Source: a virus (lineage: Duplodnaviria; Caudoviricetes). From it: 52,228 nt of DNA. Shown in pieces: positions 2,000 to 16,295 of this stretch. The notes beneath the pieces were generated by a model. It had not been told where the DNA came from. It did no database searches and worked only from the letters and a program-made list of their open reading frames with translations. Positions within the stretch are counted from its first letter, which is position 1; each line of letters starts with the position of its first letter. The DNA lies in IMG/VR virus record IMGVR_UViG_3300036852_000313, positions 1 through 52,228 of that record. One strand, given 5' to 3'. Made by a program: the position numbers and the translations under genes.

Positions 2000-2020
2000 G
2001 CGTCAACTCCTTGTAGAAAA

Positions 2021-2784: not shown

Positions 2785-3569
2785 TTCGGTGTCTCCGCCG
2801 CGCGTGGCGGCTCGTCGAGTGAGTTGAACAACGCTTGCATCGTGTTTTCGATCTGCGCAATATTCACGCCCGGTTTAAATGTCACGCTGTGCTTTGCTGG
2901 GCGCACGCTGTCAGCTTGCGCCGTGACATACCACTTGCGGGCAGGCCCGAACCCGAGCGGGCTTGTGTACAACCAAATGTCGAACGCTGAGTGAATGCGT
3001 TGCCGAATGGCGCTGCACATCACCGGCAGCATTTGATCGTCAAACTGCCACTCCTGCTTGTTTTTGTCGCCGAAGCTGGGACGGCGCGCGGCGGCACCTG
3101 CACCTTCCAGCTCGCGCATTTGCGCGTGAAACACGCACACAACAGTCTTGCCTTTGCTGGCGATGCGGCGCAGCTCCGTTACCAGCGCCTTGATTTGCTG
3201 GTCGTGGCCTGTGTACGCACGTCCGTGCCCCACGTCGCCAGGATCGTTCGTTGCGTGAACCTTGAGCACTTCGTGCATCGCGAGGTCGCTTGCTTCGCTC
3301 GCGGTATCAAGCACCACGAATTGCGAGTCGTCTTTGTAACGCGCGTCGAGCCACGCGAACAACCGCGTCAGTCCATCGGCGTTGAATTGGTTGATGTGTG
3401 GGCGCCAATCAAGATCGGCGAACAGCGTTACCCCATCGGTGCCGTAGAAGCTCGCTTCCTTTGGGTCTGTCAACGCGACAGCGGTTTTGCCGAGCGCGCG
3501 TGCGCTCCGCGCGAAGTGTGACTTGCCCGTGCCGGGAATCCCGGTAACGCCGATCAGATGTGCAGTCAT
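2781..3569 (-). CDS. AAA_24 / Sak4-like recombination ATPase
   Basis: Walker A GIPGTGKS, Walker B VVLDTAS, VVCVFH, AFDIWLY. Confidence 0.8.
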   Translation of the reverse strand: MTAHLIGVTGIPGTGKSHFARSARALGKTAVALTDPKEASFYGTDGVTLFADLDWRPHINQFNADGLTRLFAWLDARYKDDSQFVVLDTASEASDLAMHEVLKVHATNDPGDVGHGRAYTGHDQQIKALVTELRRIASKGKTVVCVFHAQMRELEGAGAAARRPSFGDKNKQEWQFDDQMLPVMCSAIRQRIHSAFDIWLYTSPLGFGPARKWYVTAQADSVRPAKHSVTFKPGVNIAQIENTMQALFNSLDEPPRAAETPK

Positions 3570-3763
3570 GCGGTTTGCCTTTGCCACAGGGCTTCTACGT
3601 AACTGTAGTTCCCATAAAAAAGGAGGCGCCGTGCTATGAAAACGGAATATAGCGCAGCGCGCGCAAGTTCTGCATCTTCAGTAACCAGTGCATCGGTTAC
3701 GTCGAAAGGCGCTTCGCTGCTTTCTTCCGTATCTCCATACTCCGGCGAGAAGATGCGACTCAT
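3566..3763 (-). CDS. Hypothetical protein
   Basis: 65 aa; ATGA overlaps at both ends. Confidence 0.5.
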   Translation of the reverse strand: MSRIFSPEYGDTEESSEAPFDVTDALVTEDAELARAALYSVFIARRLLFYGNYSYVEALWQRQTA

Positions 3764-3927
3764 TTGCCTTTGCCTGGTTGCGTGCTGGATACACGAATGA
3801 AGTGCTTGGTTGCCGACTGCCAGTCTCTGTCGTCTCGTGACGCAGGGCTTGTGCCAGCAGGACGACCAGCCTCGTAGCGAATCGTGATTTTGTTGCGCTT
3901 CCCGCGCAGGAGCTTGCGGCGGCTCAT
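3760..3927 (-). CDS. Small basic hypothetical protein (55 aa, not in ORF track)
   Basis: MSRRKLLRGKRNKITIRYEAG...; ATGA overlaps at both ends. Confidence 0.5.
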   Translation of the reverse strand: MSRRKLLRGKRNKITIRYEAGRPAGTSPASRDDRDWQSATKHFIRVSSTQPGKGK

Positions 3928-4157
3928 GGTGCCTCGTTCAGTGCAGCAATCAGCGCTTGCAATGCCAAGTCGCGCAACTCACGACGGTTTAGCTGTGGAA
4001 GCAATGACCACTCGCTGTATTTTTCGTGCTCTGCTTGATAATCAATTTCGCGCTGAACGTATTCCCGTATTGCAGCAGCAATGTGCTGTGTACGCTCAGT
4101 GCCTGACTTTTCATCCGTTAGAGCTTTCACACCACTTGCACAAAAAGCCGATGTCAT
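3924..4157 (-). CDS. Hypothetical protein
   Basis: 77 aa ORF in a tightly packed operon. Confidence 0.55.
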   Translation of the reverse strand: MTSAFCASGVKALTDEKSGTERTQHIAAAIREYVQREIDYQAEHEKYSEWSLLPQLNRRELRDLALQALIAALNEAP

Positions 4158-4160
4158 CGG

Positions 4161-4391
4161 TCACCGTTTTTCACGCCCAACGTCGCGGAATAGCTCGCGG
4201 TCCTCGGGCAGCAGCCCACCAGGTGCGCTGTAGCGCGCCTGCAGCTCGTTATACACTTCGGGCCACGCTTTTTTGAGCAGCTCCGTGTTGACTGAATCTG
4301 CCTTCCGCATTGCGGCCATAAGCAGTGCGTAGAATGGGTGGTCTTGCGCCGCGATTTGTCGAGACACCACGTAGTCATGGTAACGGCTCAT
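4161..4391 (-). CDS. Hypothetical phage protein
   Basis: PFYALLMAAMRKADSVN...WPEV..ELQARY.APGG; ATGA overlap. Confidence 0.7.
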   Translation of the reverse strand: MSRYHDYVVSRQIAAQDHPFYALLMAAMRKADSVNTELLKKAWPEVYNELQARYSAPGGLLPEDRELFRDVGREKR

Positions 4392-5278
4392 ATTGCGCGC
4401 TCCTCGGCGACTTGACGCGGGCTCCACTCACGGCGCTCGAATAGTTGCGTGGTTTGCGTGTGCAATTCCGCTGGTTCCGCATAAAAGTCTCTAAACTCAT
4501 CCACCTTGCCGTAGAGCCAATTCTGATACACCGGCCACGGCGTGTCAAGTCCTCGCGTGCGTTCCAGCTCCGCTATTTGTGCTAGTGTATAGCGCAAGTC
4601 CCACGCCCAGCGTTCGACGCGCCAGTCCCGAACGGGCACAGGGCCGAAACGCACAAAGTCTTTCTCAAGATCGACTTTCGGCGGCGCACCAGACTTCGAC
4701 ACATAATCGCTGATGTGAATCCCATCCGTGATATAGCCGTCGCAGCGCAGCCCGAGCGCACGACGCAGCGCCACATAGCCCGTCATTTGGTCAGACAAGC
4801 TCATTGCGGTTTCCCACTGGTCGCCGAGATACGCGCCGGTCGATTTCGTATCCACAACGTATTCGCTTGCATCGGGAAAGCGCACCGCAAAGTCCATGAT
4901 GCCACAATACATAAAGCCCGGCACGCAAGCGTCTGCATGAATCATTGCCTCAGCATACGTCTCATTCGCAATCAGTTCCCAAGGCTCGCTCGCGTAGCGC
5001 GCAGCATACGCGCGCACGATGCGCTCAACGTGCGCCGCGTCGCGCGGTCCCGCGCCTTCGCCGCGCAGCTTGCGCCCGTGCGCCACAGCTCCGTCAATGC
5101 TCACCCCTGAACGCAGCGCGTTTAGCGCACCATGAATCGCGCTTCCAGCACGCATCTTGTCGTCTGGCGTCGCGGGCTGTAGGTGCAGTCGATAGCGCAG
5201 TCTGAACGCTTCTGGATTTTCACGAAAGCGCGCAATGCTGGAATGGTCGGGAATCCATGTCACTTTGTCGCTGTACAT
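4388..5278 (-). CDS. PD-(D/E)XK exonuclease (RecB/Cas4-like)
   Basis: DHSSI..F..NP..FRLRY, GSAIHGAL, GIMDF, VVDTKST, QMTGY. Confidence 0.85.
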   Translation of the reverse strand: MYSDKVTWIPDHSSIARFRENPEAFRLRYRLHLQPATPDDKMRAGSAIHGALNALRSGVSIDGAVAHGRKLRGEGAGPRDAAHVERIVRAYAARYASEPWELIANETYAEAMIHADACVPGFMYCGIMDFAVRFPDASEYVVDTKSTGAYLGDQWETAMSLSDQMTGYVALRRALGLRCDGYITDGIHISDYVSKSGAPPKVDLEKDFVRFGPVPVRDWRVERWAWDLRYTLAQIAELERTRGLDTPWPVYQNWLYGKVDEFRDFYAEPAELHTQTTQLFERREWSPRQVAEERAI

Positions 5279-5559
5279 GGCGTTGGCTCCTGTTTGATTG
5301 AAAGGGTTCGGCAAGTTGTGGACCAGAGTCGTGCGCCTGCCACTTGATCGCAACACACATGCACACGTCCTTTAATGATGATTGTGGCCTTACGCGCACA
5401 TGGTTTCCAGCCATGCCACGGATTGCGGTCGCGCTTGTACATCCATGCGCGTAGCGCGCGCAACTCCTGGGCCAACGTGACCACGCGCGCCTGCGCGCGC
5501 GGCTTCTTCGGTATCCACACGTCGCCGCCGAACAGGGACGGATGGGCGGCGCACTTCAT
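5260..5559 (-). CDS. Hypothetical protein
   Basis: ATG overlapping upstream TGA. Confidence 0.4.
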   Translation of the reverse strand: MKCAAHPSLFGGDVWIPKKPRAQARVVTLAQELRALRAWMYKRDRNPWHGWKPCARKATIIIKGRVHVCCDQVAGARLWSTTCRTLSIKQEPTPCTATK

Positions 5560-5747
5560 GGCGTGGTCTCGCCATAGACGCGATTTAGCGCCACGCACAA
5601 TCGCGGTGCGCGTGAACGCGCCTTCGGGTCGCTTTCCTTGCTGGGCGTAGCCGCTACGCGCATTTCGCCGCACACCACAACGTACTGCGACAGATTGATG
5701 CTGTACACAACCCGCCAGGCGTCTGGCGTCGGTGCGAGTGTGATCAT
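5556..5747 (-). CDS. Hypothetical protein
   Basis: MITLAPTPDAWRVVYS... 63 aa; ATGA overlaps. Confidence 0.45.
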   Translation of the reverse strand: MITLAPTPDAWRVVYSINLSQYVVVCGEMRVAATPSKESDPKARSRAPRLCVALNRVYGETTP

Positions 5748-6634
5748 TGACGAACTTCTCCGGTTTCCAACAGGTGAATGAGGCGCGCTGTCAGGTTTTG
5801 ACGTGCGGCGTTCCATGCGGCGTCTGCTGCGGCGTTCGCTGCGGCGTTCGCTGCGGCGGCCCGTGTGGCGTCCCATGCGGCGTCTCCTGTGGCGTCCCAT
5901 GCGGCGGCCCGTGCGGCGTCTCCTGCGGCGGCCGCTGCGGCGGCGGCGGCCCTTGCGGCGCTCCATGCGGCGTCTGCTGCGGCGGCCCGTGCGGCGTCTC
6001 CTGCGGCGGCCGCTGCGGCGGCGGCGGCCCGTGTGGCGTCCCATGCGGCGTCCCCCCATGCGGCCCGTGCGGCGGCCCGTGCGGCGTCTCCTGCGGCGGC
6101 CGCTGCGGCGGCGGCGGCCCTTGCGGCGTCCCATGCGGCGTCCTCCCATGCGGCCCGTGTGGCGGCCGCTGCGGCGTCCCATGCGGCGTCTCCTGCGGCG
6201 TTAAGGAAGATGTGATTTACCTTGCCTTCCGCGAATGCTTCGATGGCTTCGATGCACTTCCGCATACGGTCGTCGTTCGGACGTTTGCGCTCAAAGAAAG
6301 GCAGCACGTCACGCGCGCAGGATGCGGCGAACAGGTGCACGGTGCGATCGTTCCAATGAGCGCAACGACGGAGCAGCCGAGCCGACGCGACGACAGTTTT
6401 ATTCTTGTCGCGGATGGACTCGCCACGCACTTCAACAATATAGATCGTCGGGCCGAGCCAGGTTATGAGATCGTGCGGTTCGCAAACGTGATAGCCACGC
6501 ACGCAAGGCTTGATGTTATCTAGCCTAGGCATCCACTTACCTGGCCTCTTGCCCGATGGCAGGCACCAGCGACCAGTTCCGCCGTGGTGCGCAGAACCAT
6601 CTTCACCGAGCACTTTGTAAAGTATGTCACTCAT
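5744..6634 (-). CDS. Phage protein with AAWDAARAAA low-complexity repeat
   Basis: Globular N-terminus (PCVRGYHVC..DLITW; LFAASCARDVLP), then Ala/Trp/Asp repeats. Confidence 0.8.
   Translation of the reverse strand: MSDILYKVLGEDGSAHHGGTGRWCLPSGKRPGKWMPRLDNIKPCVRGYHVCEPHDLITWLGPTIYIVEVRGESIRDKNKTVVASARLLRRCAHWNDRTVHLFAASCARDVLPFFERKRPNDDRMRKCIEAIEAFAEGKVNHIFLNAAGDAAWDAAAAATRAAWEDAAWDAARAAAAAAAAAGDAARAAARAAWGDAAWDATRAAAAAAAAAGDAARAAAADAAWSAARAAAAAAAAAGDAARAAAWDATGDAAWDATRAAAANAAANAAADAAWNAARQNLTARLIHLLETGEVRQ
5803..6200. repeat. Degenerate tandem coding repeat (gcggcgtcccat / gcggcggccc units)
   Basis: Directly visible; encodes AAWDA/AAGDA/AARAA. Confidence 0.9.
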
Positions 6635-7113
6635 AGCCACGCCTGCCGCAACGCATAGCCGCCGTCCTTGTGCCAGTGCGCCACATAGCCCACCTCATAT
6701 GGACGCTTGCCACCGTTTGTGTGCGGCGTGTAGTCGTAGTCGCCGTTGCTGTGGTCATTGCTTTGGCATCGTTCGCCAACGCACGGTACGCCGTCCGGCC
6801 AGAGCGCGCGTCCCAGCTCATACACGAGCGCGAATCCCATATCCATGCCGCACCCGCCAATCTTGACGCCACCTCGGTCGCGGTCGAAACGCCTGTCGAG
6901 TGCACGCGCGACTGCCCAGCCAATCGCATACGGCACTGTGCGCGTTTCGTCGTGCTCAATGCGCGGCGCACAAATCACTAGCTCAATCGTGCGCTGCATT
7001 CCGCTCCGGCTCACATGGCGCAAGGTCGTATGCACCGTGTCACCAGGCTTGAGCCATTCACGCAACTTCGCTTGCGCTTCCGCGCGCTCGGTCTTGCTCA
7101 CTCTGTCACTCAT
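6631..7113 (-). CDS. Hypothetical phage protein
   Basis: LRHVSRSGMQRTI...GGCGMDMGFALVYEL motifs; GGAGG RBS. Confidence 0.8.
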   Translation of the reverse strand: MSDRVSKTERAEAQAKLREWLKPGDTVHTTLRHVSRSGMQRTIELVICAPRIEHDETRTVPYAIGWAVARALDRRFDRDRGGVKIGGCGMDMGFALVYELGRALWPDGVPCVGERCQSNDHSNGDYDYTPHTNGGKRPYEVGYVAHWHKDGGYALRQAWL

Positions 7114-7314
7114 CTATATATCCTCCAAGCTACTCGTTAACTGGTGCATTCGCTCTTGTGCTTCGTTCACCGCATAGCGTGCATCAGATACGCTTGAATA
7201 GCTCGGTTTGCCAACAATGAAATTAGCGATACACGCCAATACTGTTTGCACATACTGCGCATTTCGGCGCATTGCTTCCATGTTAGGTGTTACATACTTG
7301 TCATCGTCACTCAT
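7114..7314 (-). CDS. Hypothetical protein
   Basis: 66 aa, preceded by hairpin copy 7. Confidence 0.7.
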   Translation of the reverse strand: MSDDDKYVTPNMEAMRRNAQYVQTVLACIANFIVGKPSYSSVSDARYAVNEAQERMHQLTSSLEDI

Positions 7315-7315
7315 T

Positions 7316-7349
7316 GCCGTCGCTCCAAAGGTTTGAGTTTGGGACTAGC
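7316..7349 (-). promoter_or_regulatory. SD-sequestering hairpin repeat, copy 7
   Basis: GCT-A-GTC-CCAAA-ctcaaacc-TTTGG-AGC-GAC-GGC-a-ATG. Confidence 0.75.
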
Positions 7350-7512
7350 CTTTTTGTGCAAACACTGCGGTTGGTACATTACCGTTGAGATACGCGCAGC
7401 GCCTTGCGGCACTTTCGCGGTCTGTGTGGTCTGAATCGCTGTGCCACGCACCGCGTGGATCATAAAAGCCTACTGTCCACAGCTCCGGCTCACTTCGCAC
7501 GTATACCCACAT
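7345..7512 (-). CDS. Small phage protein (55 aa, not in ORF track)
   Basis: MWVYVRSEPELWTVGFYDPRGAWHSDSDH...AARRCAYLNG; GGAGG RBS; its TAG stop lies inside hairpin copy 7. Confidence 0.75.
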   Translation of the reverse strand: MWVYVRSEPELWTVGFYDPRGAWHSDSDHTDRESAARRCAYLNGNVPTAVFAQKG

Positions 7513-7543
7513 CCTTTAATCCTCCAATTGAATGGGGACTAGC
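7513..7543 (-). promoter_or_regulatory. Hairpin repeat, copy 6 (degenerate)
   Basis: GCTAGTCCCCATTCAATTGGAGGATTAAAGG-ATG. Confidence 0.55.
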
Positions 7544-7553
7544 TTAACTGCGC

Positions 7554-7799
7554 TCACTCAATCTGCATCACTATCGTACATGCCGCAATATCGACTGGCC
7601 TGCCCGGCGTATCAAACTCCGCCGCAACTTGTGCGCCGTCCTGAATCACGACGTGACGCGCGCTTGCGTCATAGCGCACACGCGCACGGCACTCGTTTGC
7701 ATAAATCAATGTGCCTGTGCGCCGTCGCGTGCCGTCGTCGTCGAGCAGCGCGAATCGTGCACCGCTCGGTAGCGTCCACAGCTCGACAGTCGCGTTCAT
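7554..7799 (-). CDS. Hypothetical protein
   Basis: 81 aa; ATGA overlap. Confidence 0.65.
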   Translation of the reverse strand: MNATVELWTLPSGARFALLDDDGTRRRTGTLIYANECRARVRYDASARHVVIQDGAQVAAEFDTPGRPVDIAACTIVMQIE

Positions 7800-8380
7800 G
7801 TTTCCTTCATGTGCTGGTTATCCTGCGGGCAGATTGGCGCGCCCGGCCCGTCCAACCAGACGCGCGTCACGCGCGCCACGTAACCACAACTCCTACACGT
7901 CACCTTCACGAGTCGCGCGCCCTGTGCTTTCGGCAAACTGTGTGCGTCCAGTGCCGCATGCGGCCACGGCCCAAGCTCAGCGTTTAAACGTTCTAGCACC
8001 GCGCGCAGTTCTGAGCCTGCACACTGCGAGCGCGCTGGGCCAACGCTCAGGCCGATGCGCTCGCACGCGCGCACAAACGCTCGTTTGTGGCCCGTGCCTG
8101 GCGGCATGCACGCGTGCACCATCTCGTGACACAGTGTGTCTAGCGCCGCAATGGCGTCCTCGTGCAGCGGACTCACAAAGATGTGCGGCGCGCCGTCCAT
8201 CGAGTGCGCTCCGGCCCAGCACTGCCCCACCGTGGCGCCACGTTTGCCACGTAGCCCACCACGACTCGGGAACCCGACGCTTACGTGTATGTGCTCTGGC
8301 AGCGCGAGCGTTTCCGCCTCGAAACGTGCGCGCAGCGCCACAATGGCGCGCGTCAACCAGGCTTCGCGTGTGTCACTCAT
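7796..8380 (-). CDS. SprT-like HExxH metalloprotease with C-terminal Zn ribbon
   Basis: GQCW, TLCHEMVHA, GHKRAF, CRSCGY...PICP. Confidence 0.8.
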   Translation of the reverse strand: MSDTREAWLTRAIVALRARFEAETLALPEHIHVSVGFPSRGGLRGKRGATVGQCWAGAHSMDGAPHIFVSPLHEDAIAALDTLCHEMVHACMPPGTGHKRAFVRACERIGLSVGPARSQCAGSELRAVLERLNAELGPWPHAALDAHSLPKAQGARLVKVTCRSCGYVARVTRVWLDGPGAPICPQDNQHMKET

Positions 8381-8660
8381 AGACATTGCACGCACAACCA
8401 ATCTGCCCGCAATCGCGACAGTATGCACTCGGATTAAGCGGTATCACGTCGTCAGCATCTACGCTGTGCTTCCGGTCGTCTCCAATCATCACGCACACGA
8501 CACGGCCAGTGCGCACTTCGTAGCCAGACCATTCCGTGTCCTCGTCTGGCTCTGTCTCCCAGCCCAGCACATAGAACGCTACGCCGTCGTAGCCACGCAC
8601 GGCGTATGCGTCGTGCGGGAAAGCTTGCTCGTCGGGTTCGTAATGCGTGCGGTTATACAT
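8373..8660 (-). CDS. Acidic hypothetical protein
   Basis: MYNRTHYEPD...YCRDCGQIGC; follows hairpin copy 5. Confidence 0.75.
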   Translation of the reverse strand: MYNRTHYEPDEQAFPHDAYAVRGYDGVAFYVLGWETEPDEDTEWSGYEVRTGRVVCVMIGDDRKHSVDADDVIPLNPSAYCRDCGQIGCACNVYE

Positions 8661-8661
8661 C

Positions 8662-8693
8662 GCTGTCACTCCGGTTTGGGTGTCGGGACTAGC
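8662..8693 (-). promoter_or_regulatory. SD-sequestering hairpin repeat, copy 5
   Basis: GCT-A-GTC-CCG-acacccaaac-CGG-AGT-GAC-AGC-g-ATG. Confidence 0.8.
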
Positions 8694-8705
8694 GTATGGC
8701 TTGCT

Positions 8706-8765
8706 GACCTCATCAGTCGTGGCAGTCACCACGAGACGACGCGTGACTCGCGCGTCGTTTCGGTC
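8706..8765 (-). ncRNA. Type II hammerhead ribozyme HH1 (predicted cut between 8735 and 8734)
   Basis: GACC-GAAA-CGACGCG-cgagtca-CGCGTCG-TC^TCGTGG-tgactg-CCACGA-CTGATGA-GGTC: full CUGAUGA/GAAA/GUC core with three perfect stems. Confidence 0.92.
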
Positions 8766-8948
8766 TTAGACTATAGTTCCCCAATCCGGGTCCAGATCGT
8801 AAGCGCTTACCCAACGACAAGATGCGTCCTCATACTCGACATATGCGCGGTTATGCTCTTCGTCTATCTCCAGCACGACAACAAATGCCGTTACGTCTCC
8901 GTTGTCGTATTCAAGCTCCTGCCCGATGTACATGTCTGAGCATTTCAT
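8766..8948 (-). CDS. Small acidic hypothetical protein
   Basis: MKCSDMYIGQELEYDNGD...; follows hairpin copy 4; stop abuts HH1. Confidence 0.7.
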   Translation of the reverse strand: MKCSDMYIGQELEYDNGDVTAFVVVLEIDEEHNRAYVEYEDASCRWVSAYDLDPDWGTIV

Positions 8949-8951
8949 TTG

Positions 8952-8988
8952 GCCGTCGCTCCGCGCTAGGTTAGCTGTCGGGACTAGC
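8952..8988 (-). promoter_or_regulatory. SD-sequestering hairpin repeat, copy 4
   Basis: GCT-A-GTC-CCG-acagctaacctagcg-CGG-AGC-GAC-GGC-caa-ATG. Confidence 0.8.
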
Positions 8989-9232
8989 ATTCTGTGTTTG
9001 ACGCAATGCTGCTCGTTGCATCCATCGCGTAGGCGTTCGCCTCTGCAACCAAGTCCGTTAGTGTCTGTTGTGAGCTGGGATAGAACAGCTCTACGCCCTC
9101 CTCGACAATAACGATGCGTCCGTTCTTGCTCCATATGTCGAGTGTGTTCGGCGTGCCTTGCACTGGCGTGCTTGCCATGTGCCGCCAACCTGACTCTATG
9201 AGCAGGTTTGTGAGTTGCTGGCCTCTGTCCAT
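8984..9232 (-). CDS. Hypothetical protein
   Basis: 82 aa; its TAG stop is inside hairpin copy 4. Confidence 0.7.
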   Translation of the reverse strand: MDRGQQLTNLLIESGWRHMASTPVQGTPNTLDIWSKNGRIVIVEEGVELFYPSSQQTLTDLVAEANAYAMDATSSIASNTEC

Positions 9233-9234
9233 TT

Positions 9235-9273
9235 GCTGTCACTCCGAGCTAGGGTTAGCCAATCGGGACTAGC
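9235..9273 (-). promoter_or_regulatory. SD-sequestering hairpin repeat, copy 3
   Basis: GCT-A-GTC-CCG-attggctaaccctagct-CGG-AGT-GAC-AGC-aa-ATG. Confidence 0.8.
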
Positions 9274-9275
9274 GC

Positions 9276-9509
9276 TTACTCGTACTGCTCATCAATCATC
9301 TTCGCGAGTGCTTCGTCTTTCGTGGCGAATGGGCCGAAAGGTTCGCCGTCTGGCAGGCATCCAGGAAAGCAGGCCCACCAGTACCAGCCAGCTTCGCTGG
9401 GCTCACCATCGTTGTCCAGCTCCAACTCACCACGCCTAGCGTAGAATATCTCTACGTCTGGCAGCGTGTGTGGGTCATTCTCGCGGCTAGGATCGCTGTA
9501 CGCTTGCAT
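9276..9509 (-). CDS. Acidic hypothetical phage protein
   Basis: MQAYSDPSRE..LPDVEIFY...GWYWWACFPGCLPDGEPFGPF. Confidence 0.75.
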   Translation of the reverse strand: MQAYSDPSRENDPHTLPDVEIFYARRGELELDNDGEPSEAGWYWWACFPGCLPDGEPFGPFATKDEALAKMIDEQYE

Positions 9510-9540
9510 GCTGTCACTCCGAGTTAGTGTCGGGACTAGC
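9510..9540 (-). promoter_or_regulatory. SD-sequestering hairpin repeat, copy 2
   Basis: GCT-A-GTC-CCGA-cactaac-TCGG-AGT-GAC-AGC-ATG. Confidence 0.8.
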
Positions 9541-9552
9541 GTATAACTTGCT

Positions 9553-9613
9553 GGCCTCATCGGCCGCGGCAGTCACCGCGGGACGACGCGCTACGTCGCG
9601 CGCCGTTTCGGCC
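9553..9613 (-). ncRNA. Type II hammerhead ribozyme HH2, U4C core variant (predicted cut between 9582 and 9581)
   Basis: GGCC-GAAA-CGGCGCGC-gacgta-GCGCGTCG-TC^CCGCGG-tgactg-CCGCGG-CCGATGA-GGCC; stems covary with HH1. Confidence 0.85.
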
Positions 9614-9822
9614 TATGCGTATGCTGGATCAATGACGCGTTGGATATCCTTAGCACAAGCAAGCGCTGCGAATTGTAACGCGACGTATAGCGAGCGCTCT
9701 GGCGAGCGCGCTGGAAACGCTAGTGCCATACGCCAAAGGCGGTCTGATGTGTGACACAATGCGCGCATTCTCTGCGCCATGCGCCGTTCTTGCTCTATGG
9801 TGTGTTGTGCGTTCGTGTGCAT
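9613..9822 (-). CDS. Hypothetical protein
   Basis: MHTNAQHTIEQERR...; follows hairpin copy 1; TAG overlaps HH2. Confidence 0.65.
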   Translation of the reverse strand: MHTNAQHTIEQERRMAQRMRALCHTSDRLWRMALAFPARSPERSLYVALQFAALACAKDIQRVIDPAYA

Positions 9823-9825
9823 TTT

Positions 9826-9863
9826 GCTGTCGCTCCGTAGGGGGTTAGCCAATCGGGACTAGC
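9826..9863 (-). promoter_or_regulatory. SD-sequestering hairpin repeat, copy 1
   Basis: GCT-A-GTC-CCG-attggctaacccccta-CGG-AGC-GAC-AGC-aaa-ATG. Confidence 0.8.
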
Positions 9864-9953
9864 GTAAGCACACACCGCGCAGGTTAAACACTGTTGCCCA
9901 TAGATAGTATCGGGTCAGTCCTGCGCCAGTGTATGCCTTGCGCTGCAACACAT

Positions 9954-9970
9954 AGCATGATATGTGCCAA
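9954..9970 (-). promoter_or_regulatory. Possible sigma-54 (-24/-12) promoter for the early operon
   Basis: TTGGCACATATCATGCT: GG and GC at sigma-54 spacing, ATGC instead of TTGC. Confidence 0.3.
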
Positions 9971-10338
9971 GCGCACTAACCGCGCGTTTCGGCCACTTGC
10001 GGTCGCATCGTATCACATTGACACACCGCAACCTGCGACGAATCGTGCAAATTGCGAGAGTGTGCAACGTAGTAGCCAGCTAACGTGCGTTTAGCTGGTT
10101 ACTCGCGTCGTGCTAACCGGCTAGGCGCGTTTATGGTGGTTAGCGTGTCGAAGTGACACGTTTGGTGCTGACCAGCCTGTTGGCGCTGCCCGGCGCTGCC
10201 ACATTGGCGCGCGCGTGCGCCATATTGGCGCGACCCCCACCATGCCCCTTGGCGCTGCGGCGCGCAGAACTACGCGTTCGCGCTAATGCGCGGCATATTT
10301 TTTCTGAACGGTCTAGCTCGCTTCGCGCGATGCGGCGT

Positions 10339-10734
10339 TCATTTCGCATATCTCCACGGCAGCCCTGTCCAGCGCACAAGCAAGGTGCGCGCACCGAGTT
10401 CGCCGCCGTAGCGCAAACCGCGCTCCGCGCTCCAAAACAGCACCGAGTCCTCGACGAGCACGTAGATGCCGACGATGGAGTCGCGCTGCACGCCGCTATC
10501 TTGTGCTCTGGTCCACACAATCCAATCAGTAAACGTGCTGTCTGAACGCAACTCGATGGCGCCAGCAACAACCGCGCTTCCGTCAGCGCCGAATTTCCAC
10601 GGCAGCGTGTCGCCCGCGACGTTGCGCAGCGTCCATGTACCTAGCGCGCTAGCGTCTGGCGCCTGATTGTAGCACCCAGCGGCGCACGAGAGCATGAACG
10701 CAAGGCTCGTGGTGCAGCGAGCTGCGCCGATCAC
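10339..10734 (-). CDS. Lipoprotein with lipocalin-like beta domain
   Basis: Hydrophobic leader ending AAGC, then ALGTWTLRNVAGDTLP...AGAIELRSDSTFT. Confidence 0.65.
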   Translation of the reverse strand: MIGAARCTTSLAFMLSCAAGCYNQAPDASALGTWTLRNVAGDTLPWKFGADGSAVVAGAIELRSDSTFTDWIVWTRAQDSGVQRDSIVGIYVLVEDSVLFWSAERGLRYGGELGARTLLVRWTGLPWRYAK

Positions 10735-10883
10735 TTCGCCTTCTTGCGTTTGCGTGGTTTTCGTGCTTTGCCAGCGACATGCAACGCAATGGCGACAGAC
10801 TGTTTTTGCGCGTAACCGCTGCGTTGCAGCTCGGCGATGTTCTCGCCAATGGTTTTGCGGGACTTGCCGCGTTTCAGTGGCAC
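10731..10883 (-). CDS. Small basic phage protein (50 aa, not in ORF track)
   Basis: VPLKRGKSRKTIGENIAEL..SGYAQKQSVAIAL, a recurrent phage motif; GTGA overlap. Confidence 0.7.
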   Translation of the reverse strand: MPLKRGKSRKTIGENIAELQRSGYAQKQSVAIALHVAGKARKPRKRKKAK

Positions 10884-10885
10884 AG

Positions 10886-11110
10886 CTATGGCCTCGCGCG
10901 CGCGAGCTGCTCGCGGATGTCGAGTTCGCAGCGCCCGCTCGCTGGGCGATCAAGCTCAACATACACACGATCTCCGGCGCGCCCAGGCAGCACGTAATGT
11001 GTGATGCATGGCAGCAGCAACGGCTCCGGCGCGCGCTGGCGCGCAGACGCCGCTGCCGCAAGCGCGAGCAGCGCCACGACGACAAGCCGTACCACGCCGA
11101 TGTATGTCAT
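10886..11110 (-). CDS. Small secreted/membrane protein
   Basis: Signal-peptide-like VVRLVVVALLALAAAASA. Confidence 0.55.
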   Translation of the reverse strand: MTYIGVVRLVVVALLALAAAASARQRAPEPLLLPCITHYVLPGRAGDRVYVELDRPASGRCELDIREQLARARP

Positions 11111-11340
11111 TGCAGCGACGCCGCGCGAATGCGCGCAATCGCGCGCGCGGCCACCTGCGCATCGAGCGTCGAAAGCGGAAACGCGCATATCGTGGGCGCA
11201 GCGGGCGCGGTGCCAGGCGCTTTAAGCAGTTCAAGCACCGCGTCTCCAAGTTGCCGCAGAATCTCAGCGTCCGTCACGCTGACCGCGCTATCGTTCGCGA
11301 GTTCGCGCCGTACCGCCGCAACAAGATGACGCACGGTCAT
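11107..11340 (-). CDS. Hypothetical protein
   Basis: ATGA overlaps at both ends. Confidence 0.5.
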   Translation of the reverse strand: MTVRHLVAAVRRELANDSAVSVTDAEILRQLGDAVLELLKAPGTAPAAPTICAFPLSTLDAQVAARAIARIRAASLQ

Positions 11341-11531
11341 GGGCGCAGCGAGCGCAGCACAAGCGAATTCGCGTTGCGTGCCTTTCGGCGCGCACGCTTC
11401 GCGCCAGCCGCGTGCAGGCGCGCCACGCGTTGTGGGCTCGCTTCGAGCGCGGCCTGGCGTCGCGCCTCGGAGGCGCGCGTAGAGGCGTACACCCACTGGA
11501 CGCGCGCCAGCAATGCGTGTGTATCAGTCAT
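11337..11531 (-). CDS. Small basic hypothetical protein
   Basis: ATGA overlaps at both ends. Confidence 0.5.
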   Translation of the reverse strand: MTDTHALLARVQWVYASTRASEARRQAALEASPQRVARLHAAGAKRARRKARNANSLVLRSLRP

Positions 11532-11866
11532 GCGGTCGGGCGCTCTTTCTTGAGCGCGTGCAGGAACATGGCGACCAGCGCCGCCGTCACGCCACGCACT
11601 ATGGTCGAGCCGCTGAGCGCTGAAACGCACACTTGCGTCACATCTTGCGGTAGTGTGTCGCATTCGGGCGGGAGTGCGATACCAAGCGCGTTGAGCACCG
11701 CTACCACCAGCGTCCCGAGGAGCACGACCGCGAACCGCTTAAATATGGGCGGCAAGTCGTCAACCCAAGTTGTTACGTTCAGCAACTGTCTCGCCCACAA
11801 GTACACAATCGGCCCAAGCACAATCGGCAGCACCCAGCCCGCCACCGTAAACGCAATGTTTGTCAT
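11528..11866 (-). CDS. Holin-like membrane protein
   Basis: 112 aa, three hydrophobic segments, basic C-terminus HALKKERP. Confidence 0.6.
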   Translation of the reverse strand: MTNIAFTVAGWVLPIVLGPIVYLWARQLLNVTTWVDDLPPIFKRFAVVLLGTLVVAVLNALGIALPPECDTLPQDVTQVCVSALSGSTIVRGVTAALVAMFLHALKKERPTA

Positions 11867-12615
11867 GCAGATACTCCAGAAGTTGTGCGTGTTGGTTCGC
11901 GGGCTCCGCGTGCGAGCGGTGCGCCCTCTGCCTCAAGTTCAAGCTGTAGCAATGCGAGCGCTCGCCACGCGAGCTTCGCGCTGTGTCGTGTTCCGTCAGA
12001 ATCTAGCGTGCCGCGCTCCAGCAAGTGTCGCACAAGCGTATCGGCTTGATCTGTTGACTTGCCGCGCGACCAATGCAGCGGCTGGCCGGGGTTGTGCTGG
12101 TCGTTTCCGGCCTTTGATACGCGCGCAACTTCGACGAGCGCCGCAGGAAAGTAATCGAGCACGCCCGAGACGAGCGGGATAGCTTTGCGCTCGGCGGCGT
12201 CGCTCGGAAGCACGGTGCGCGCTGATGGCGTAGCGTCTTGTACACGCTCCATTGTTATTGCGTCAAATACAGCAAGCTGCAACATTCGCGCTACTAGCAG
12301 CTCTTTGTTGGCGCCGCGTGAATTCTGCCAACCAGGCAACAACGCAATGGCAGCACAAGTCGAAATTTCTGCGATGTCCATGCGCAGAAACTCGTTATAG
12401 ATGGCGCCACCAGCTTTAATACTTGGGTCGGGATTGTTGACATCAAACTCTTCGTGAAAGCGTTCACGCCAGTATTGGCGATCCATGTCAGCAGGACTAA
12501 CGACTTCCCAGCCTGCTGCGCTCCACGCATCACGCGCCGCATCAAACGCAGGGAAATTGAATTGTGGTATTCCAGTCATCGGTCCAGCGATATAGATGCG
12601 TGCCAAGTGTGCCAT
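11863..12615 (-). CDS. DUF4406 (deoxyribosyltransferase-like) fused to dATP/dGTP diphosphohydrolase domain (DUF5664-like)
   Basis: IYIAGPMTG..FNFPAF, LPGWQNSRGANKE; ERKAIPLVSGVLDYFPAAL..VSKAGNDQHNPG.PLHW...HSAKLAWRALA. Confidence 0.8.
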   Translation of the reverse strand: MAHLARIYIAGPMTGIPQFNFPAFDAARDAWSAAGWEVVSPADMDRQYWRERFHEEFDVNNPDPSIKAGGAIYNEFLRMDIAEISTCAAIALLPGWQNSRGANKELLVARMLQLAVFDAITMERVQDATPSARTVLPSDAAERKAIPLVSGVLDYFPAALVEVARVSKAGNDQHNPGQPLHWSRGKSTDQADTLVRHLLERGTLDSDGTRHSAKLAWRALALLQLELEAEGAPLARGAREPTRTTSGVSA

Positions 12616-12617
12616 AC

Positions 12618-12935
12618 TTAACCTCTGTCGTCGAGCATTTCGCGCACGCGCGCGGTCGCGAGCGCGTCGCACAATCGCTCCGCAAGTTCCTCAGACACGT
12701 CGATACTCGCATCCCAGAGCAAGATATGCGCCCACTCGTGCCAATACGTCTGCCACGCCGTGATTGACGACATGTTTACTTCGAGTCGCACGTCGCGCTG
12801 GGCGCTGCGCCAAATCCCGAAGCACGCCTCGTCGCGCAAATTTCGCAAGTCCACCACGCAAGTCACCGGCACGTCACCAAGAACGCTCGGTATGGTTGCG
12901 GGAATGGGAGGAAGTGCTTTTTTTGTGCGTGTCAC
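12618..12935 (-). CDS. Small HExxH metallopeptidase-like protein
   Basis: QTYWHEWAHILL...AERLCDALA. Confidence 0.7.
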   Translation of the reverse strand: MTRTKKALPPIPATIPSVLGDVPVTCVVDLRNLRDEACFGIWRSAQRDVRLEVNMSSITAWQTYWHEWAHILLWDASIDVSEELAERLCDALATARVREMLDDRG

Positions 12936-13453
12936 GCGGTGCACACCCCGGCCCACGACGGCCACCGTACCATTTGGCGCACAAGGCGCTCACTCTCTAT
13001 TGACGTCATGTCACGATCTGCCGTGGCCGCAAGCTGCACCAACTCACCCAGCGCAACGTGCATCGCTTCGTGTAGTGCAATCAAGCGCATATCTTCGTGG
13101 TCCCGCTGAATCGTGTACAAGTTGAAAATGCTTGTCGCTTCGAGCGCGCCAGCTCGCGTAAGTGTGCGTCCATACCACTCGAATGTCGGGTCACTAATGA
13201 CGCTGATATGCACGTCCCAGCGCGGTATCAAACCTAGCTTGCTCAAGAAACACCGTGCGTGCCACTGAATTGCAATGGCGGCCTCGTTGCTCTGTGGGGC
13301 GAGCGTGTATGTGGAGTCAACGTGCTGTCCCTGCGCGCACTGCACACATGTCAGCATCAGCGCGCTGCTTAAACCCAGCGCGCAGAGCGCAATGCGCAAA
13401 TACGAGAGCATCTTCGTGCGCTTCGTCATACACTTCAACATATTGTGGGTCAA
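12932..13453 (-). CDS. Putative exported HExxH metallopeptidase
   Basis: Signal-like N-terminus; ALHEAMHVAL, SERLV. Confidence 0.6.
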   Translation of the reverse strand: MTHNMLKCMTKRTKMLSYLRIALCALGLSSALMLTCVQCAQGQHVDSTYTLAPQSNEAAIAIQWHARCFLSKLGLIPRWDVHISVISDPTFEWYGRTLTRAGALEATSIFNLYTIQRDHEDMRLIALHEAMHVALGELVQLAATADRDMTSIESERLVRQMVRWPSWAGVCTA

Positions 13454-14499
13454 GCCAATCGCGCAAGTTCGCGCGCTAAATGTGTCGCAACGCGCTCCGC
13501 CGCCCGCCCGCCGCCAAAGATTTGCGTCGGTTTGCGTGGAATCAGTTGCGCCGCAAGTGTAGTCACTGCATCTTGCGCGCCAGCCGCTGTTGGAGCGAAC
13601 AGGCGCGCGATGCCTGCATGCTCAGCCTCTGGACGGTCGTTCGCGACGCGCAAAATCGCGGTCGGCACGCCGAGCGCCGCCGCTTCCTCGACCAGTCCGC
13701 CCGAGTCCGTCAGTACACCGCGCGCTTCCGCAAGCGTTTGCAACATCGTGGTGTGCGCCAACGGTGGGCACAGCACGAAATTCGTCGGTATACGCAGTGT
13801 GCTGAGCAGTGGGTGCATGCCAGGATGCACGGGCCAAAACGCGCGAATGGGCGCTGCGCCAATTGCGTCACACAAACCTTGTAGCATTGCTGGGGCATCG
13901 CTGCGGGTGCGCATTTCACGTCGATGCAGCGTCACCAGCAGTACGTCGTTCGCTTCCGCACACGGGTGCACGTCGGTATAGTGTAGCGCGTCGATTCCCG
14001 TGTTGCCGGTCACGATACTCTCTAAGCGTTCGCTTGCGAGATTGTGAAACGCGTGCTCGGTCGGCGCATATCGCCACGTCGCCATTCGGTCGATTGCAAC
14101 GCGAATGATTTCCTCCGGCCACGGATCGGACTCGCTGCCGCTCCGTACGCCCGCCTCAACATGCGCAACCGGAATTCCGGCCTCGCGCGCGCACAACGCA
14201 CCCACCATAGCGGACATGGTGTCACCCTGTACCAGCACACTGCGCGGGCGGTGTGCCGCGAGATACGCTGTGAGCGCGCGGTGGGCGCGCGCCATAAATC
14301 GCATGATGCTGCCGTCCGATGCTACGTCAAGCGTTACGAAGCGGCCAAGCCGCATCAGCAGCGCGTCATCGACCAGCGACTTGTGTTGGCCTGTGGCAAG
14401 CGCTACAGTTGCTACGCCCGCCGCACGCAACGCCTCGATCACCGGCACGGTCTTGATGGCGTCTGGCCGCGTTCCGAACACGCAAAGTACGTCTGTCAT
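13450..14499 (-). CDS. wecB: UDP-N-acetylglucosamine 2-epimerase
   Basis: FGTRPDAIK, TGQH, VQGDT, AHVEAGVRS, PWPEE, VTGNTGIDAL, TLHRRE, TDSGGLVEEA. Confidence 0.93.
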   Translation of the reverse strand: MTDVLCVFGTRPDAIKTVPVIEALRAAGVATVALATGQHKSLVDDALLMRLGRFVTLDVASDGSIMRFMARAHRALTAYLAAHRPRSVLVQGDTMSAMVGALCAREAGIPVAHVEAGVRSGSESDPWPEEIIRVAIDRMATWRYAPTEHAFHNLASERLESIVTGNTGIDALHYTDVHPCAEANDVLLVTLHRREMRTRSDAPAMLQGLCDAIGAAPIRAFWPVHPGMHPLLSTLRIPTNFVLCPPLAHTTMLQTLAEARGVLTDSGGLVEEAAALGVPTAILRVANDRPEAEHAGIARLFAPTAAGAQDAVTTLAAQLIPRKPTQIFGGGRAAERVATHLARELARLA

Positions 14500-14514
14500 G
14501 TGCACTACTCCAGC

Positions 14515-14673
14515 TAGTTTTTCTCAGCTTTCTCAGTGAGAACTGAGGTACATATTGAGATAATTACCTGAGAATCATGATAAAAATTTCTCGATGTCGT
14601 TATGCCGCAGCGACTTACGCAAAAATTTATCATGAGAATTTCATGCGAATTTCTCATCGGCCCCTTTTTCTCA
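14515..14673. other. Candidate replication origin (AT-rich, TGAGAA/TTCTCA iterons, inverted repeat)
   Basis: TTCTCA at 14521, 14530, 14651, 14668; TGAGAA at 14537, 14569, 14633; TCATGATAAA (14575) / TTTATCATGA (14626); next to the helicase gene. Confidence 0.5.
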
Positions 14674-15603
14674 CGGCTTCTCTTTGTCTCCCCGCACCAC
14701 GCGATCCCACGCGCGATACGCGGTGGCTTGCGCACACAACGGTTTGCCTTGTTCATCTGTTTGCGCCAGAAGCCACTTGATTGCATCTGGGCGTTTGGCG
14801 CGCGGATTGGCCGCAATCCATGAAAGCAGCAGTTTTTCAAGTGGAGTCTCTGTGACGGGTTCAAGCATAAGAGTTTCATTGAGGCGCAGCAGGATCGCGG
14901 CAGGTTCTTGGCAGCTTCGCGTTCGCACAAAATAGACCCGCGTCATCCAATCGGAATTGTTGGCGCGGCGAACACGACGCTGCATGATAACGGTGTCAGC
15001 GCTCGCAGCCCACGCGGTTGTGCCGCGAAATGCCTCGCGCACGCCGGTATCCGCAGTGACTTGCGCCGGGAGTTTGCGCGAGTGATGCAAAAAGACGAAT
15101 GCGGCGCCGGGAATCAGTGTGCGCCACGCGGCGTAAACTCGGTCTGCCGCCGTCGAGTCGTTTTCGTCGAAGTTGTGCGTTTTGCGAAGCGTGTCCACAA
15201 ACACCACATCGGGCGCGAAGGCGCGAATGGCGACAAACGCGGGTTCGCTCAACGCTATCTTGCAGACATCGAGCGGCATCGCGTCGGTGAGCAAGACCTT
15301 AATGTCGTCGGTGAGAAACGCAGCGCTAGAGCGCAACCGCTCCTGATACAGCAACGAATTCATATCGGCTTGCACAATCAGGACGCGGCAGCGTTGTACA
15401 GGAAACACGCCCCACAATGGTTCACCGCGCACGAGCGCACTCGCCATAGTCGCGGTCAGCATGGTTTTGCCAGCGCTCGGCGGGCCAAACAGCAGCGTTA
15501 CGCTGCCAGCCGCCAGAAACGGGTCGATCAGCAGCGGCGCGCGTGACGACAGCTCTAATGTCGTCAACGTTGCAGCGCCGTGTAACGCGACTCGAAGCGT
15601 CAC
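14671..15603 (-). CDS. AAA_25 / RepA-like replicative helicase
   Basis: GPPSAGKT, VFVDTLRK, DENDS, LHHSRK, FRGTTAWAASAD. Confidence 0.85.
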   Translation of the reverse strand: MTLRVALHGAATLTTLELSSRAPLLIDPFLAAGSVTLLFGPPSAGKTMLTATMASALVRGEPLWGVFPVQRCRVLIVQADMNSLLYQERLRSSAAFLTDDIKVLLTDAMPLDVCKIALSEPAFVAIRAFAPDVVFVDTLRKTHNFDENDSTAADRVYAAWRTLIPGAAFVFLHHSRKLPAQVTADTGVREAFRGTTAWAASADTVIMQRRVRRANNSDWMTRVYFVRTRSCQEPAAILLRLNETLMLEPVTETPLEKLLLSWIAANPRAKRPDAIKWLLAQTDEQGKPLCAQATAYRAWDRVVRGDKEKP

Positions 15604-15606
15604 ATG

Positions 15607-15822
15607 CTAGCGTTGCGTATCGTCGATACTGAGCTGAAGGCGAGGGCGCCGCGAACGCTGGCCGCGATCCCGTTCGCGCCGATAGAGAGGAAGGTTGAAT
15701 GGCGGGTCACAGTCCTCGTGCCACGCGCCGATGCCGTGCTCGTGATATGCACGTTCATCGTGCGCGATAGGTTCTTCGCACGTCAAACAGATAGTGTTGT
15801 AGCCGAGGCGACGGGGGTGCAT
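15607..15822 (-). CDS. Small Zn-finger-like protein
   Basis: CLTCEEPI...WHEDC. Confidence 0.55.
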   Translation of the reverse strand: MHPRRLGYNTICLTCEEPIAHDERAYHEHGIGAWHEDCDPPFNLPLYRRERDRGQRSRRPRLQLSIDDTQR

Positions 15823-15838
15823 TACTCAGGCTCCCAAT

Positions 15839-16246: not shown

Positions 16247-16295
16247 CGTGTGTCTCGTTGTGCAAATTTGGCGCCGTGTGGCGCGCTCCTACGCC

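What the first reader, a model, noticed from the sequence alone, without database searches (positions are those of the whole stretch)
8706..9613. Two covarying type II hammerhead ribozymes punctuating the early polycistronic mRNA
Seen: on the coding (minus) strand, 8706..8765 and 9553..9613 both fold as hammerheads. Stem I changes TCGTGG/CCACGA to CCGCGG/CCGCGG and stem II changes GACC/GGTC to GGCC/GGCC, which are compensatory changes. Loop I (TGACTG) and the 3' tail AGCAAG..ATAC are conserved. Each starts at the stop codon of the upstream gene and ends ~12 nt before an SD hairpin. Established: CUGANGA/GAAA/NUH is the hammerhead core, and cleavage gives 2',3'-cyclic phosphate and 5'-OH ends. 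HH2 has CCGAUGA (U4C), off consensus. Inference: protein-free processing of early mRNA, with the two sites possibly tuned to different rates.
Basis: partly seen in the sequence, partly recalled or inferred. Interest (0 to 1): 0.88.

Follow-up and report, generated by a model that had tools for sequence, protein, structure and literature searches.

The report
Two hammerhead ribozymes between phage genes
Two small self-cutting RNA motifs (type II hammerhead ribozymes) really do sit between small genes of an uncultured soil phage, but this layout has been known in phages since 2011, so it is a well-formed, ordinary example.

Summary
On the minus strand, 8765-8706 (HH1) and 9613-9553 (HH2) each have the full type II hammerhead layout: open 4-bp stem II, GAAA, capped stem III, GUC cleavage triplet, capped 6-bp stem I and CUGAUGA (CCGAUGA in HH2). 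Predicted cuts are at 8735|8734 and 9582|9581.

Rfam's Hammerhead_II model finds both sites, but below its cut-off (26.1 and 21.8 bits against 37). A model built only from hammerheads of other phage contigs scores them 64.9 and 64.0 bits, with the next hit at 12.4. Between the two copies, 3 pairs changed on both sides, 1 changed to G-U, and none broke.

The kind is known. Perreault et al. 2011 described hammerheads flanking genes or short gene blocks in prophages. My sample of viral contigs held at least 149 such ribozymes in 91 loci, with up to 11 per locus. This scan has already noted 98 hammerhead findings in at least 88 other genomes.

The C at core position 4 of HH2 is a recurrent natural variant (9 of 149) and probably slows cutting. 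No syntenic relative was available, so conservation at these junctions could not be tested. Cleavage itself is untested. Verdict: real, a new member of a known kind, low to moderate interest.

The parts
8706..8765 (-). HH1, a type II hammerhead with the consensus core CUGAUGA; predicted cut between 8735 and 8734
   Evidence: Sequence; fold; RF02276 26.1 bits; R2 64.9 bits, E 2.1e-15
9553..9613 (-). HH2, a type II hammerhead with the core CCGAUGA (C at position 4); predicted cut between 9582 and 9581
   Evidence: Sequence; fold; RF02276 21.8 bits; R2 64.0 bits, E 3.8e-15
9613..9822 (-). First small gene of the leftward operon (69 aa); its stop TAG overlaps the first base of HH2
   Evidence: ORF and translation; no Pfam or PHROG match
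8766..9509 (-). Block of three small genes between the two ribozymes: 9276-9509 (77 aa), 8984-9232 (82 aa) and 8766-8948 (60 aa). Cutting at both sites would release an 847-nt RNA, 9581-8735.
   Evidence: ORFs; sequence; no family match; the 77-aa gene has tblastn relatives in 2 of 72 loci
8373..8660 (-). Gene after HH1 (95 aa, Cys-rich C-terminus), member of a large family of small phage proteins with no name
   Evidence: Translation; 371 homologues at E<=0.001; 72 viral loci
7796..8380 (-). SprT-like protease gene; its ATG overlaps the stop of the 95-aa gene
   Evidence: phrog_6361; annotated as SprT-like protease in actinophage records at 39-46% identity; sequence
8661..8693 (-). Hairpin hiding the Shine-Dalgarno sequence, 12 nt after HH1; one of seven copies of the motif
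   Evidence: Motif search; alignment and consensus fold
9510..9540 (-). Hairpin hiding the Shine-Dalgarno sequence, 12 nt after HH2

Best explanation
Both elements are genuine cis-acting type II hammerhead ribozymes, transcribed as part of the leftward (minus-strand) operon of small early and replication-side genes. Each folds once its 3' stem II strand has been made, and each cuts itself after C17 (8735|8734 and 9582|9581). The operon RNA is thereby divided into three pieces: gene 9822; the three-gene block 9509-8766; and gene 8660 onwards. Each upstream piece keeps its stop codon and ends in the GC-rich stem III hairpin with a 2',3'-cyclic phosphate. Each downstream piece starts with a 5'-OH and the stem I hairpin, followed by about 35 nt and the Shine-Dalgarno hairpin of the next gene. 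The likely effect is that the pieces decay and are translated independently of one another. HH2, with C at core position 4, probably cuts more slowly than HH1. Shown here: sequence, fold, family fit and position. Inferred: cleavage in vivo, the end chemistry (from the ribozyme class) and the effect on expression.
For: All core residues and the three helices are in type II order, and the minimum-free-energy fold is the three-way junction. R2 scores are 64.9 and 64.0 bits against 12.4 for the next hit. There are 3 double compensatory changes and 1 wobble change between the copies, with 0 broken pairs. The family used for R2 covaries strongly: 97.2% of cells are paired against 25.5-40.8% when partners are slid, and 16 of 18 pairs show changes on both sides. 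The position is typical of the family. In 97 other well-formed phage type II hammerheads, the upstream stop codon ends within -2 to +3 nt of stem II in 65 and within 30 nt in 90; a Shine-Dalgarno sequence plus start codon lies within 60 nt downstream in 84. The window values are 0 and -1 nt, and 45 and 43 nt. Published precedent: hammerheads flank genes or short gene blocks in prophages, and three tandem sets cleaved in vitro as roughly 2-kb polycistronic transcripts (PMC3088659). Three type II hammerheads near phage-like genes cleave in vivo in Desulfovibrio vulgaris (PMC8782182). Position 4 is U in 140 and C in 9 of 149 phage hammerheads, never A or G. At the other junctions of this operon the upstream stop codon lies inside, or at most 10 nt before, the Shine-Dalgarno hairpin; at the two hammerhead junctions it lies 72 nt before it. 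The ribozymes therefore sit where translational coupling is interrupted.
Against: No cleavage data exist for this phage: no RNA run was listed. Both sites fall below Rfam's curated cut-off, and HH2 is not listed at E<=1 in the whole-window Rfam search. Neither copy has the loop I/3'-tail pseudoknot of 4 or more pairs that most type II hammerheads use as a tertiary contact (best 2 and 3 pairs, no better than shuffled tails), so fast cutting at cellular Mg2+ is not assured. U4C lowers activity in vitro. No hammerhead was found in 72 of 72 loci carrying the downstream gene's homologue, nor in 5 of 5 whole records of partial relatives, so the elements are not a conserved feature of this gene neighbourhood. 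R2 is not fully independent: its member loci were found with a pattern taken from the window copies and aligned with R1, which included them.
Confidence: 0.75

Rival explanations
1. Only HH1 is an active ribozyme. HH2 is a duplicated copy whose U4C change has crippled it, and it now serves at most as a structured spacer.
For: The core departs from consensus at position 4. U4C 'considerably decreases activity in vitro' (PMC3088659). No pseudoknot is available to compensate.
Against: All 18 pairs of HH2 are kept, through 3 double changes relative to HH1, which argues for continued selection on the fold. C4 recurs in 9 of 149 phage hammerheads while A and G never occur, including 2 of 11 in the L047 array. 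The U4C viroid variant remains infectious.
Confidence: 0.2
2. The ribozymes are active but are neutral or selfish junction modules that arrived with horizontally acquired small genes. Cleavage has no regulatory value for the phage.
For: They are absent from 72 of 72 loci with the downstream gene's homologue. In L172 the 77-aa and 95-aa gene homologues are adjacent, with no ribozyme and no intervening genes. One such locus (L171) has twister-P5 ribozymes at neighbouring junctions instead. The two copies are close paralogues sharing loop I, most of stem III and the 12-nt tail.
Against: The placement is precise, from stop codon to stem II, and it is shared by most of the family. The sites coincide with breaks in translational coupling. 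Compensatory evolution has maintained the fold.
Confidence: 0.2
3. These are not ribozymes at all, but GC-rich intergenic hairpins (RNA stabilisers or protein-binding sites) that resemble a hammerhead by chance.
For: They fall below Rfam's gathering score. Fold energies are only about 2 sd better than shuffles. The genome is GC-rich at about 0.60.
Against: The pattern is expected 0.03 times and occurs twice. Every invariant core base is in place in HH1. R2 scores exceed the background by about 50 bits. In 12 loci Rfam's cut-off passed only 20 matches where R1 found 53 well-formed hammerheads, so failing it carries little weight.
Confidence: 0.03
4. The two cuts release the 847-nt three-gene RNA, which is then ligated into a circle by a chimeric hammerhead made of the HH2 3' half and the HH1 5' half.
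For: After excision both halves would lie on one molecule, with the right end chemistry for hammerhead ligation. Perreault et al. raised this possibility.
Against: The chimeric stem II (GACC with GGCC) would contain an A-C mismatch, leaving 3 of 4 pairs. Perreault et al. looked for circular or spliced products and found none.
Confidence: 0.03

Closest known systems
Clustered hammerhead ribozymes flanking genes or short gene blocks in prophages (Perreault et al. 2011, PMC3088659)
   Same: Several hammerheads lie on the coding strand in intergenic gaps and bracket a short block of small genes of unknown function in a phage genome. The proposed role is cutting long phage transcripts into gene- or operon-length mRNAs.
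   Different: Here there are only two copies. Both lack the loop I/tail pseudoknot. Each is followed after 12 nt by a repeated hairpin that hides the Shine-Dalgarno sequence. One copy carries U4C.
Rfam RF02276 Hammerhead_II
   Same: The circular permutation is the same (stem II open, stems I and III capped), as are the core and the AGC start of the 3' tail.
   Different: Scores of 26.1 and 21.8 bits are below the gathering score of 37. Loop I is short (6 nt) and there is no pseudoknot.
Large hammerhead arrays in uncultured phages
   Same: Each ribozyme starts at or next to the upstream stop codon and precedes the next ribosome-binding site. L047 shares stem II GGCC and a GGCGCGC-type stem III, and it also has U4C copies (2 of 11).
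   Different: L047 has a ribozyme at nearly every junction (10 by pattern, 11 by model), with the Shine-Dalgarno sequence directly after stem II. The window has ribozymes at 2 of about 8 junctions and uses a hairpin motif at the others.
Synthetic ribozyme insulators such as RiboJ (recalled, not looked up here)
   Same: A self-cleaving ribozyme placed before a ribosome-binding site removes the upstream RNA context.
   Different: Those are engineered parts. An insulating effect is only an inference here.

Membership tests
Type II hammerhead ribozyme | Core strand C3 U4 G5 A6 N7 G8 A9 between stems I and II | tested here: met
   HH1 has CUGAUGA at 8716-8710
Type II hammerhead ribozyme | The same core strand in HH2 | tested here: not met
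   HH2 has CCGAUGA at 9563-9557, that is C at position 4. The same variant occurs in 9 of 149 phage hammerheads and in an infectious viroid variant.
Type II hammerhead ribozyme | G12 A13 A14, an A15.1-U16.1 pair, and H17 at the cleavage site | tested here: met
   Both copies have GAAA followed, after stem III, by U and C (GUC triplet): 8761-8758 with 8736 and 8735; 9609-9606 with 9583 and 9582
Type II hammerhead ribozyme | Three helices around the core, stems I and III capped by loops and stem II open, with a G10.1-C11.1 pair | tested here: met
   The minimum-free-energy folds give exactly this. Stem II has 4 bp, stem I 6 bp, and stem III 7 bp plus the 15.1-16.1 pair.
Type II hammerhead ribozyme | Helices supported by covariation | tested here: met
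   3 double and 1 single compensatory change between the two copies. Family alignment: 97.2% of cells paired, 16 of 18 pairs with changes on both sides.
Type II hammerhead ribozyme | Pseudoknot of 4 or more pairs between loop I and the nucleotides just after stem II (typical of most members, not obligatory) | tested here: not met
   Best Watson-Crick runs are 2 (HH1) and 3 (HH2), no better than shuffled tails. 36 of 99 sampled hammerheads (97 from other contigs plus the 2 window copies) have 4 or more. A 4-5 pair match of loop I GACU(G) to (U)AGUC 14 nt downstream exists but is identical in both copies and so untestable.
Rfam RF02276 | Score at or above the curated gathering score (37 bits) | tested here: not met
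   26.1 and 21.8 bits. For scale, in 12 loci with 53 hammerheads found by R1, only 20 matches passed.
Type II hammerhead ribozyme | Site-specific self-cleavage giving 2',3'-cyclic phosphate and 5'-OH ends | not testable with these tools
   No RNA run was listed
Clustered phage/prophage hammerheads (Perreault 2011) | Two or more hammerheads on the gene strand in intergenic gaps of a phage genome, flanking a gene or short gene block | tested here: met
   The window is a virus record, 98% complete. Both copies lie between minus-strand genes and flank a three-gene block.

The most novel reading that the evidence does not exclude
The operon is built from translationally coupled blocks, and the hammerheads are the block separators. 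Inside a block, the upstream stop codon lies in or next to the 5' arm of the hairpin that hides the next Shine-Dalgarno sequence, so a terminating ribosome opens it. At the two block borders a hammerhead replaces this relay. Its cut discards the upstream RNA and leaves a 5'-OH leader made of the stem I hairpin plus about 23 nt of freed single strand that contains GAGG. This leader could serve as a ribosome standby platform for the otherwise closed hairpin. Cleavage rate (fast at HH1, slow at the U4C copy HH2) would then set when each block begins to be translated on its own.
Probability: 0.15. Interest if true: 0.5.

Novelty: new member of a known kind. Interest (0 to 1): 0.3.

Why it matters
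The biological role of hammerheads between phage genes is still unproven 15 years after they were described. This phage offers a compact test case. It has only two ribozymes, one with the consensus core and one with a natural U4C core. Both sit in the same operon next to junctions that use a different device, a hairpin hiding the Shine-Dalgarno sequence. Swapping or inactivating the cores in a reporter would show whether cutting changes the stability or translation of neighbouring genes. By itself, though, the finding adds one more example to a large known class.

Tried and rejected
Searches for close relatives found nothing usable:
- megablast of 7000-12000 against phage records gave no match. 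blastn of the HH1 region gave only 22-29-nt chance matches.
- A scan of viral contigs for loop I plus core plus tail found nothing outside the window.
- The search for related loci with the SprT-like protein found nothing.
- The terminase has 3 relatives (55-73% identity), all short fragments without the early region. The best isolate match is 30% identical.

Checks in partial or distant relatives were negative or uninformative:
- Three phage records with a SprT-like protease (Arthrobacter phage Maureen, Microbacterium phage Zeta1847, Bacteriophage 4A) have no hammerhead within 6 kb.
- 72 viral loci with a homologue of the 95-aa gene have 0 hammerheads at E<=0.01. Only 2 of them share the 77-aa gene and 1 shares gene 6631-7113. 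This is therefore not a test of orthologous conservation.
- Whole records behind 5 loci gave 0 matches; the tool notes that an empty answer shows nothing.
- Rfam at gathering level on 20 of those 72 loci found no hammerhead, but did find 2 twister-P5 and 1 tRNA.

Sequencing runs:
- No RNA holder was listed.
- Two DNA runs of soil metagenomes hold the stretch, and one may be the source. The contigs of the other are identical over 8694-11000, so there are no natural variants to test.

Tests of secondary ideas:
- Pseudoknot between loop I and the tail: not found.
- Ribozyme/Shine-Dalgarno-hairpin switch: in folds of the precursor and of the 3' product, both elements fold independently and no alternative pairing is predicted.
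- A promoter replacing the ribozyme in relatives: only 1 of 3 loci examined has a sigma-70-like site before the homologue. This was dropped as evidence.
- Promoter- and terminator-like sites in 1-17000 are no more frequent than in shuffles.
- A GGCCGAAAC stretch near 9993 is not a hammerhead by R2 (not among the 24 hits at E<=10).

Limits on the literature: supplements of PMC3088659 (Dataset S1, Figures S5-S8) could not be seen. They may list type II hammerheads without a pseudoknot, or C4 cores. Searches for later work on the function of phage hammerheads returned nothing specific.

Full report
**What is there.** The window is a whole IMG/VR virus record of 52,228 bases, estimated 98% complete. 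Its GC content is about 0.60, and its sequence is held by soil metagenome runs. Read on the minus strand, 8765-8706 and 9613-9553 each show the same order of elements:
- a 4-nt strand (GACC in HH1, GGCC in HH2);
- GAAA;
- a GC-rich hairpin of 7 pairs plus the A15.1-U16.1 pair;
- the cleavage nucleotide C17, which with the preceding G and U forms the triplet GUC;
- a 6-pair hairpin capped by UGACUG;
- CUGAUGA (CCGAUGA in HH2);
- the strand complementary to the first (GGUC, GGCC).

This is the hammerhead core in the type II permutation, with stem II open and stems I and III capped. HH1 begins directly after the stop TAA of the upstream gene. HH2 shares its first G with the stop TAG. Each ends 12 nt before a repeated hairpin that holds the Shine-Dalgarno sequence of the next gene.

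**Is it more than chance?** Four lines of evidence bear on this.
- Both minimum-free-energy folds are the expected three-way junction. The energies are only about 2 sd better than shuffles, and 5 of 200 shuffles fold as well.
- A loose core pattern matches twice, against 0.03 expected; 0 of 100 shuffles had two matches.
- Rfam finds nothing at gathering level. In a local search its Hammerhead_II model (RF02276) picks out exactly these two sites end to end, at 26.1 and 21.8 bits against a cut-off of 37. Over the whole window HH1 has E 0.4 and HH2 is not listed at E<=1.
- I built model R1 from the two copies plus four metagenomic hammerheads with the same loop I. With it I collected 149 hammerheads from 100 viral loci and built R2 from those alone. 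With filters off, R2 scores the two window sites at 64.9 and 64.0 bits (E about 1e-15), with the next hit at 12.4 bits.

The genome therefore holds exactly two copies. R2 contains no window sequence, but it is not fully independent: its member loci were found with a pattern taken from the window copies and aligned with R1.

The low Rfam score carries little weight. In 12 loci where R1 found 53 hammerheads, only 20 matches passed Rfam's cut-off. L003, which R2 scores at 60 bits, was not reported by Rfam at E<=1.

**Covariation.** Between HH1 and HH2, two stem I pairs change from U-A to C-G. One stem II pair changes from A-U to G-C. One stem III pair changes from A-U to G-U. None of the 18 pairs is lost. 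In the 149-member alignment, 97.2% of cells are standard pairs, against 25.5-40.8% when partners are slid by 1-3 columns, and 16 of 18 pairs show changes on both sides. That alignment was fitted to the model, so it leans towards the structure.

**How it compares with the family.** Of 133 distinct pattern matches, 99 were well-formed hammerheads, and 97 of those lie outside the window. Among those 97:
- the upstream ORF's stop codon ends within -2 to +3 nt of stem II in 65, and within 30 nt in 90;
- a start codon with a Shine-Dalgarno sequence lies within 60 nt downstream in 84.

The window copies (0 and -1 nt; 45 and 43 nt) fit this pattern. Of the 100 loci searched, 91 had a hit and 25 had two or more; L047 had 11 and L056 had 9. 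In L047 each copy follows a stop codon and is followed directly by a Shine-Dalgarno sequence and ATG.

Core position 4 is U in 140 and C in 9 of the 149, and never A or G. The HH2 core is therefore a recurrent natural variant. Neither window copy has the loop I/3'-tail pseudoknot: the best runs are 2 and 3 pairs, no better than shuffled tails. Of the 99 sampled hammerheads (which include the two window copies), 36 have 4 or more pairs, mostly starting within 2 nt of stem II.

**What is known.** I read passages of Perreault et al. 2011 (PMC3088659). They report that:
- type II hammerheads are common in bacteria;
- most have a loop I/tail pseudoknot;
- three tandem sets cleaved in vitro;
- the U4C variant 'considerably decreases activity in vitro' yet permits viroid infectivity.

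Olzog et al. 2021 (PMC8782182; abstract and passages) detected in vivo cleavage of three type II hammerheads near phage-like genes in Desulfovibrio vulgaris. This scan has itself noted 98 hammerhead findings in at least 88 other genomes. The kind is therefore known.

**Surroundings.** The minus strand carries an operon of small genes:
- 9822-9613, then HH2;
- 9509-9276, 9232-8984 and 8948-8766, then HH1;
- 8660-8373, then a SprT-like protease gene (8380-7796) and further genes.

None of the nine small-gene products scanned (eight of them small operon genes, 50-95 aa) matches Pfam or PHROGs. A roughly 480-nt stretch that looks non-coding lies upstream. Seven genes are preceded by the motif GCUAGUCCCGA..GGAGYGACRGC. 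Its consensus fold pairs the Shine-Dalgarno region with the 5' arm.

At the junctions without a ribozyme, the upstream stop codon lies in the motif (8986-8984, 7347-7345) or 2-10 nt before it (9278-9276, 7556-7554). At the two ribozyme junctions it lies 72 nt before it. The hammerheads thus sit exactly where a terminating ribosome could not reach the next hairpin.

**Relatives.** No close relative with this region could be obtained. The 95-aa gene after HH1 belongs to a large family (371 proteins). In 72 viral loci that carry it, R2 finds no hammerhead, but only 2 share the 77-aa gene and 1 shares another neighbour, so these are not syntenic relatives. In L172 the homologues of the 77-aa and 95-aa genes are adjacent, with an ordinary Shine-Dalgarno sequence and no ribozyme. 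L171 has two twister-P5 ribozymes above Rfam's cut-off at junctions next to the homologue.

**Mechanism and verdict.** The two elements are most likely active, or in the case of HH2 weakly active, cis-cleaving hammerheads. They would cut the operon RNA into three units. Each upstream unit keeps its stop codon and a 3' hairpin. Each downstream unit starts with a 5'-OH and a hairpin. Independent decay and translation of the units is the most plausible effect. Cleavage, rates and effect are all untested. This is a new member of a known kind.

Noticed in passing
window 7339-9863, minus strand: Seven copies of the motif GCUAGUCCCGA..GGAGYGACRGC lie directly before start codons. The consensus fold pairs the Shine-Dalgarno region with the 5' arm. 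At four junctions the upstream stop codon lies inside the motif or 2-10 nt before it.
   Followed up: partly
L047 (67.6-kb viral contig), minus strand of the 8.5-kb locus: An array of 10-11 type II hammerheads over about 4.6 kb. Each follows a stop codon and is followed directly by a Shine-Dalgarno sequence and ATG. Two carry the same U4C core. Stems II and III resemble the window's copies.
   Followed up: partly
L171 2547-2603 and 3662-3719, plus strand: Two twister-P5 ribozymes above Rfam's cut-off (43.1 and 42.4 bits). The first lies 41 nt after the homologue of the window's 95-aa gene. A different ribozyme class thus occupies the same kind of junction.
   Followed up: no
window 8373-8660, minus strand: A 95-aa protein with an invariant GWET..D and a CxxCGQ.GC C-terminus has 371 homologues in metagenomes and 72 viral loci, but no Pfam or PHROG family. 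Its neighbours differ from locus to locus.
   Followed up: partly
window 11863-12672, minus strand: A fusion of a DUF4406 domain (nucleoside 2-deoxyribosyltransferase-like) with the N-terminal domain of dATP/dGTP diphosphohydrolase (PF18909). This may hint at nucleotide-pool editing or DNA base modification.
   Followed up: no
window 13450-14505 and 5744-6640, minus strand: A UDP-N-acetylglucosamine 2-epimerase gene and a protein with an Imm5-like immunity domain lie among the replication-side genes.
   Followed up: no
window 153-229 and 52152-52228: The last 77 bases of the record are identical to 153-229, while the 152 bases before each copy differ. The record's ends therefore overlap, which could reflect a circular or terminally redundant genome with a variable stretch, although it is classed as linear.
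   Followed up: partly
window 9863-10340, minus strand: A stretch of about 480 nt that looks non-coding lies upstream of the first small gene and is the likely promoter region of the operon. It contains a GGCCGAAAC stretch near 9993 that is not a hammerhead by the model.
   Followed up: partly
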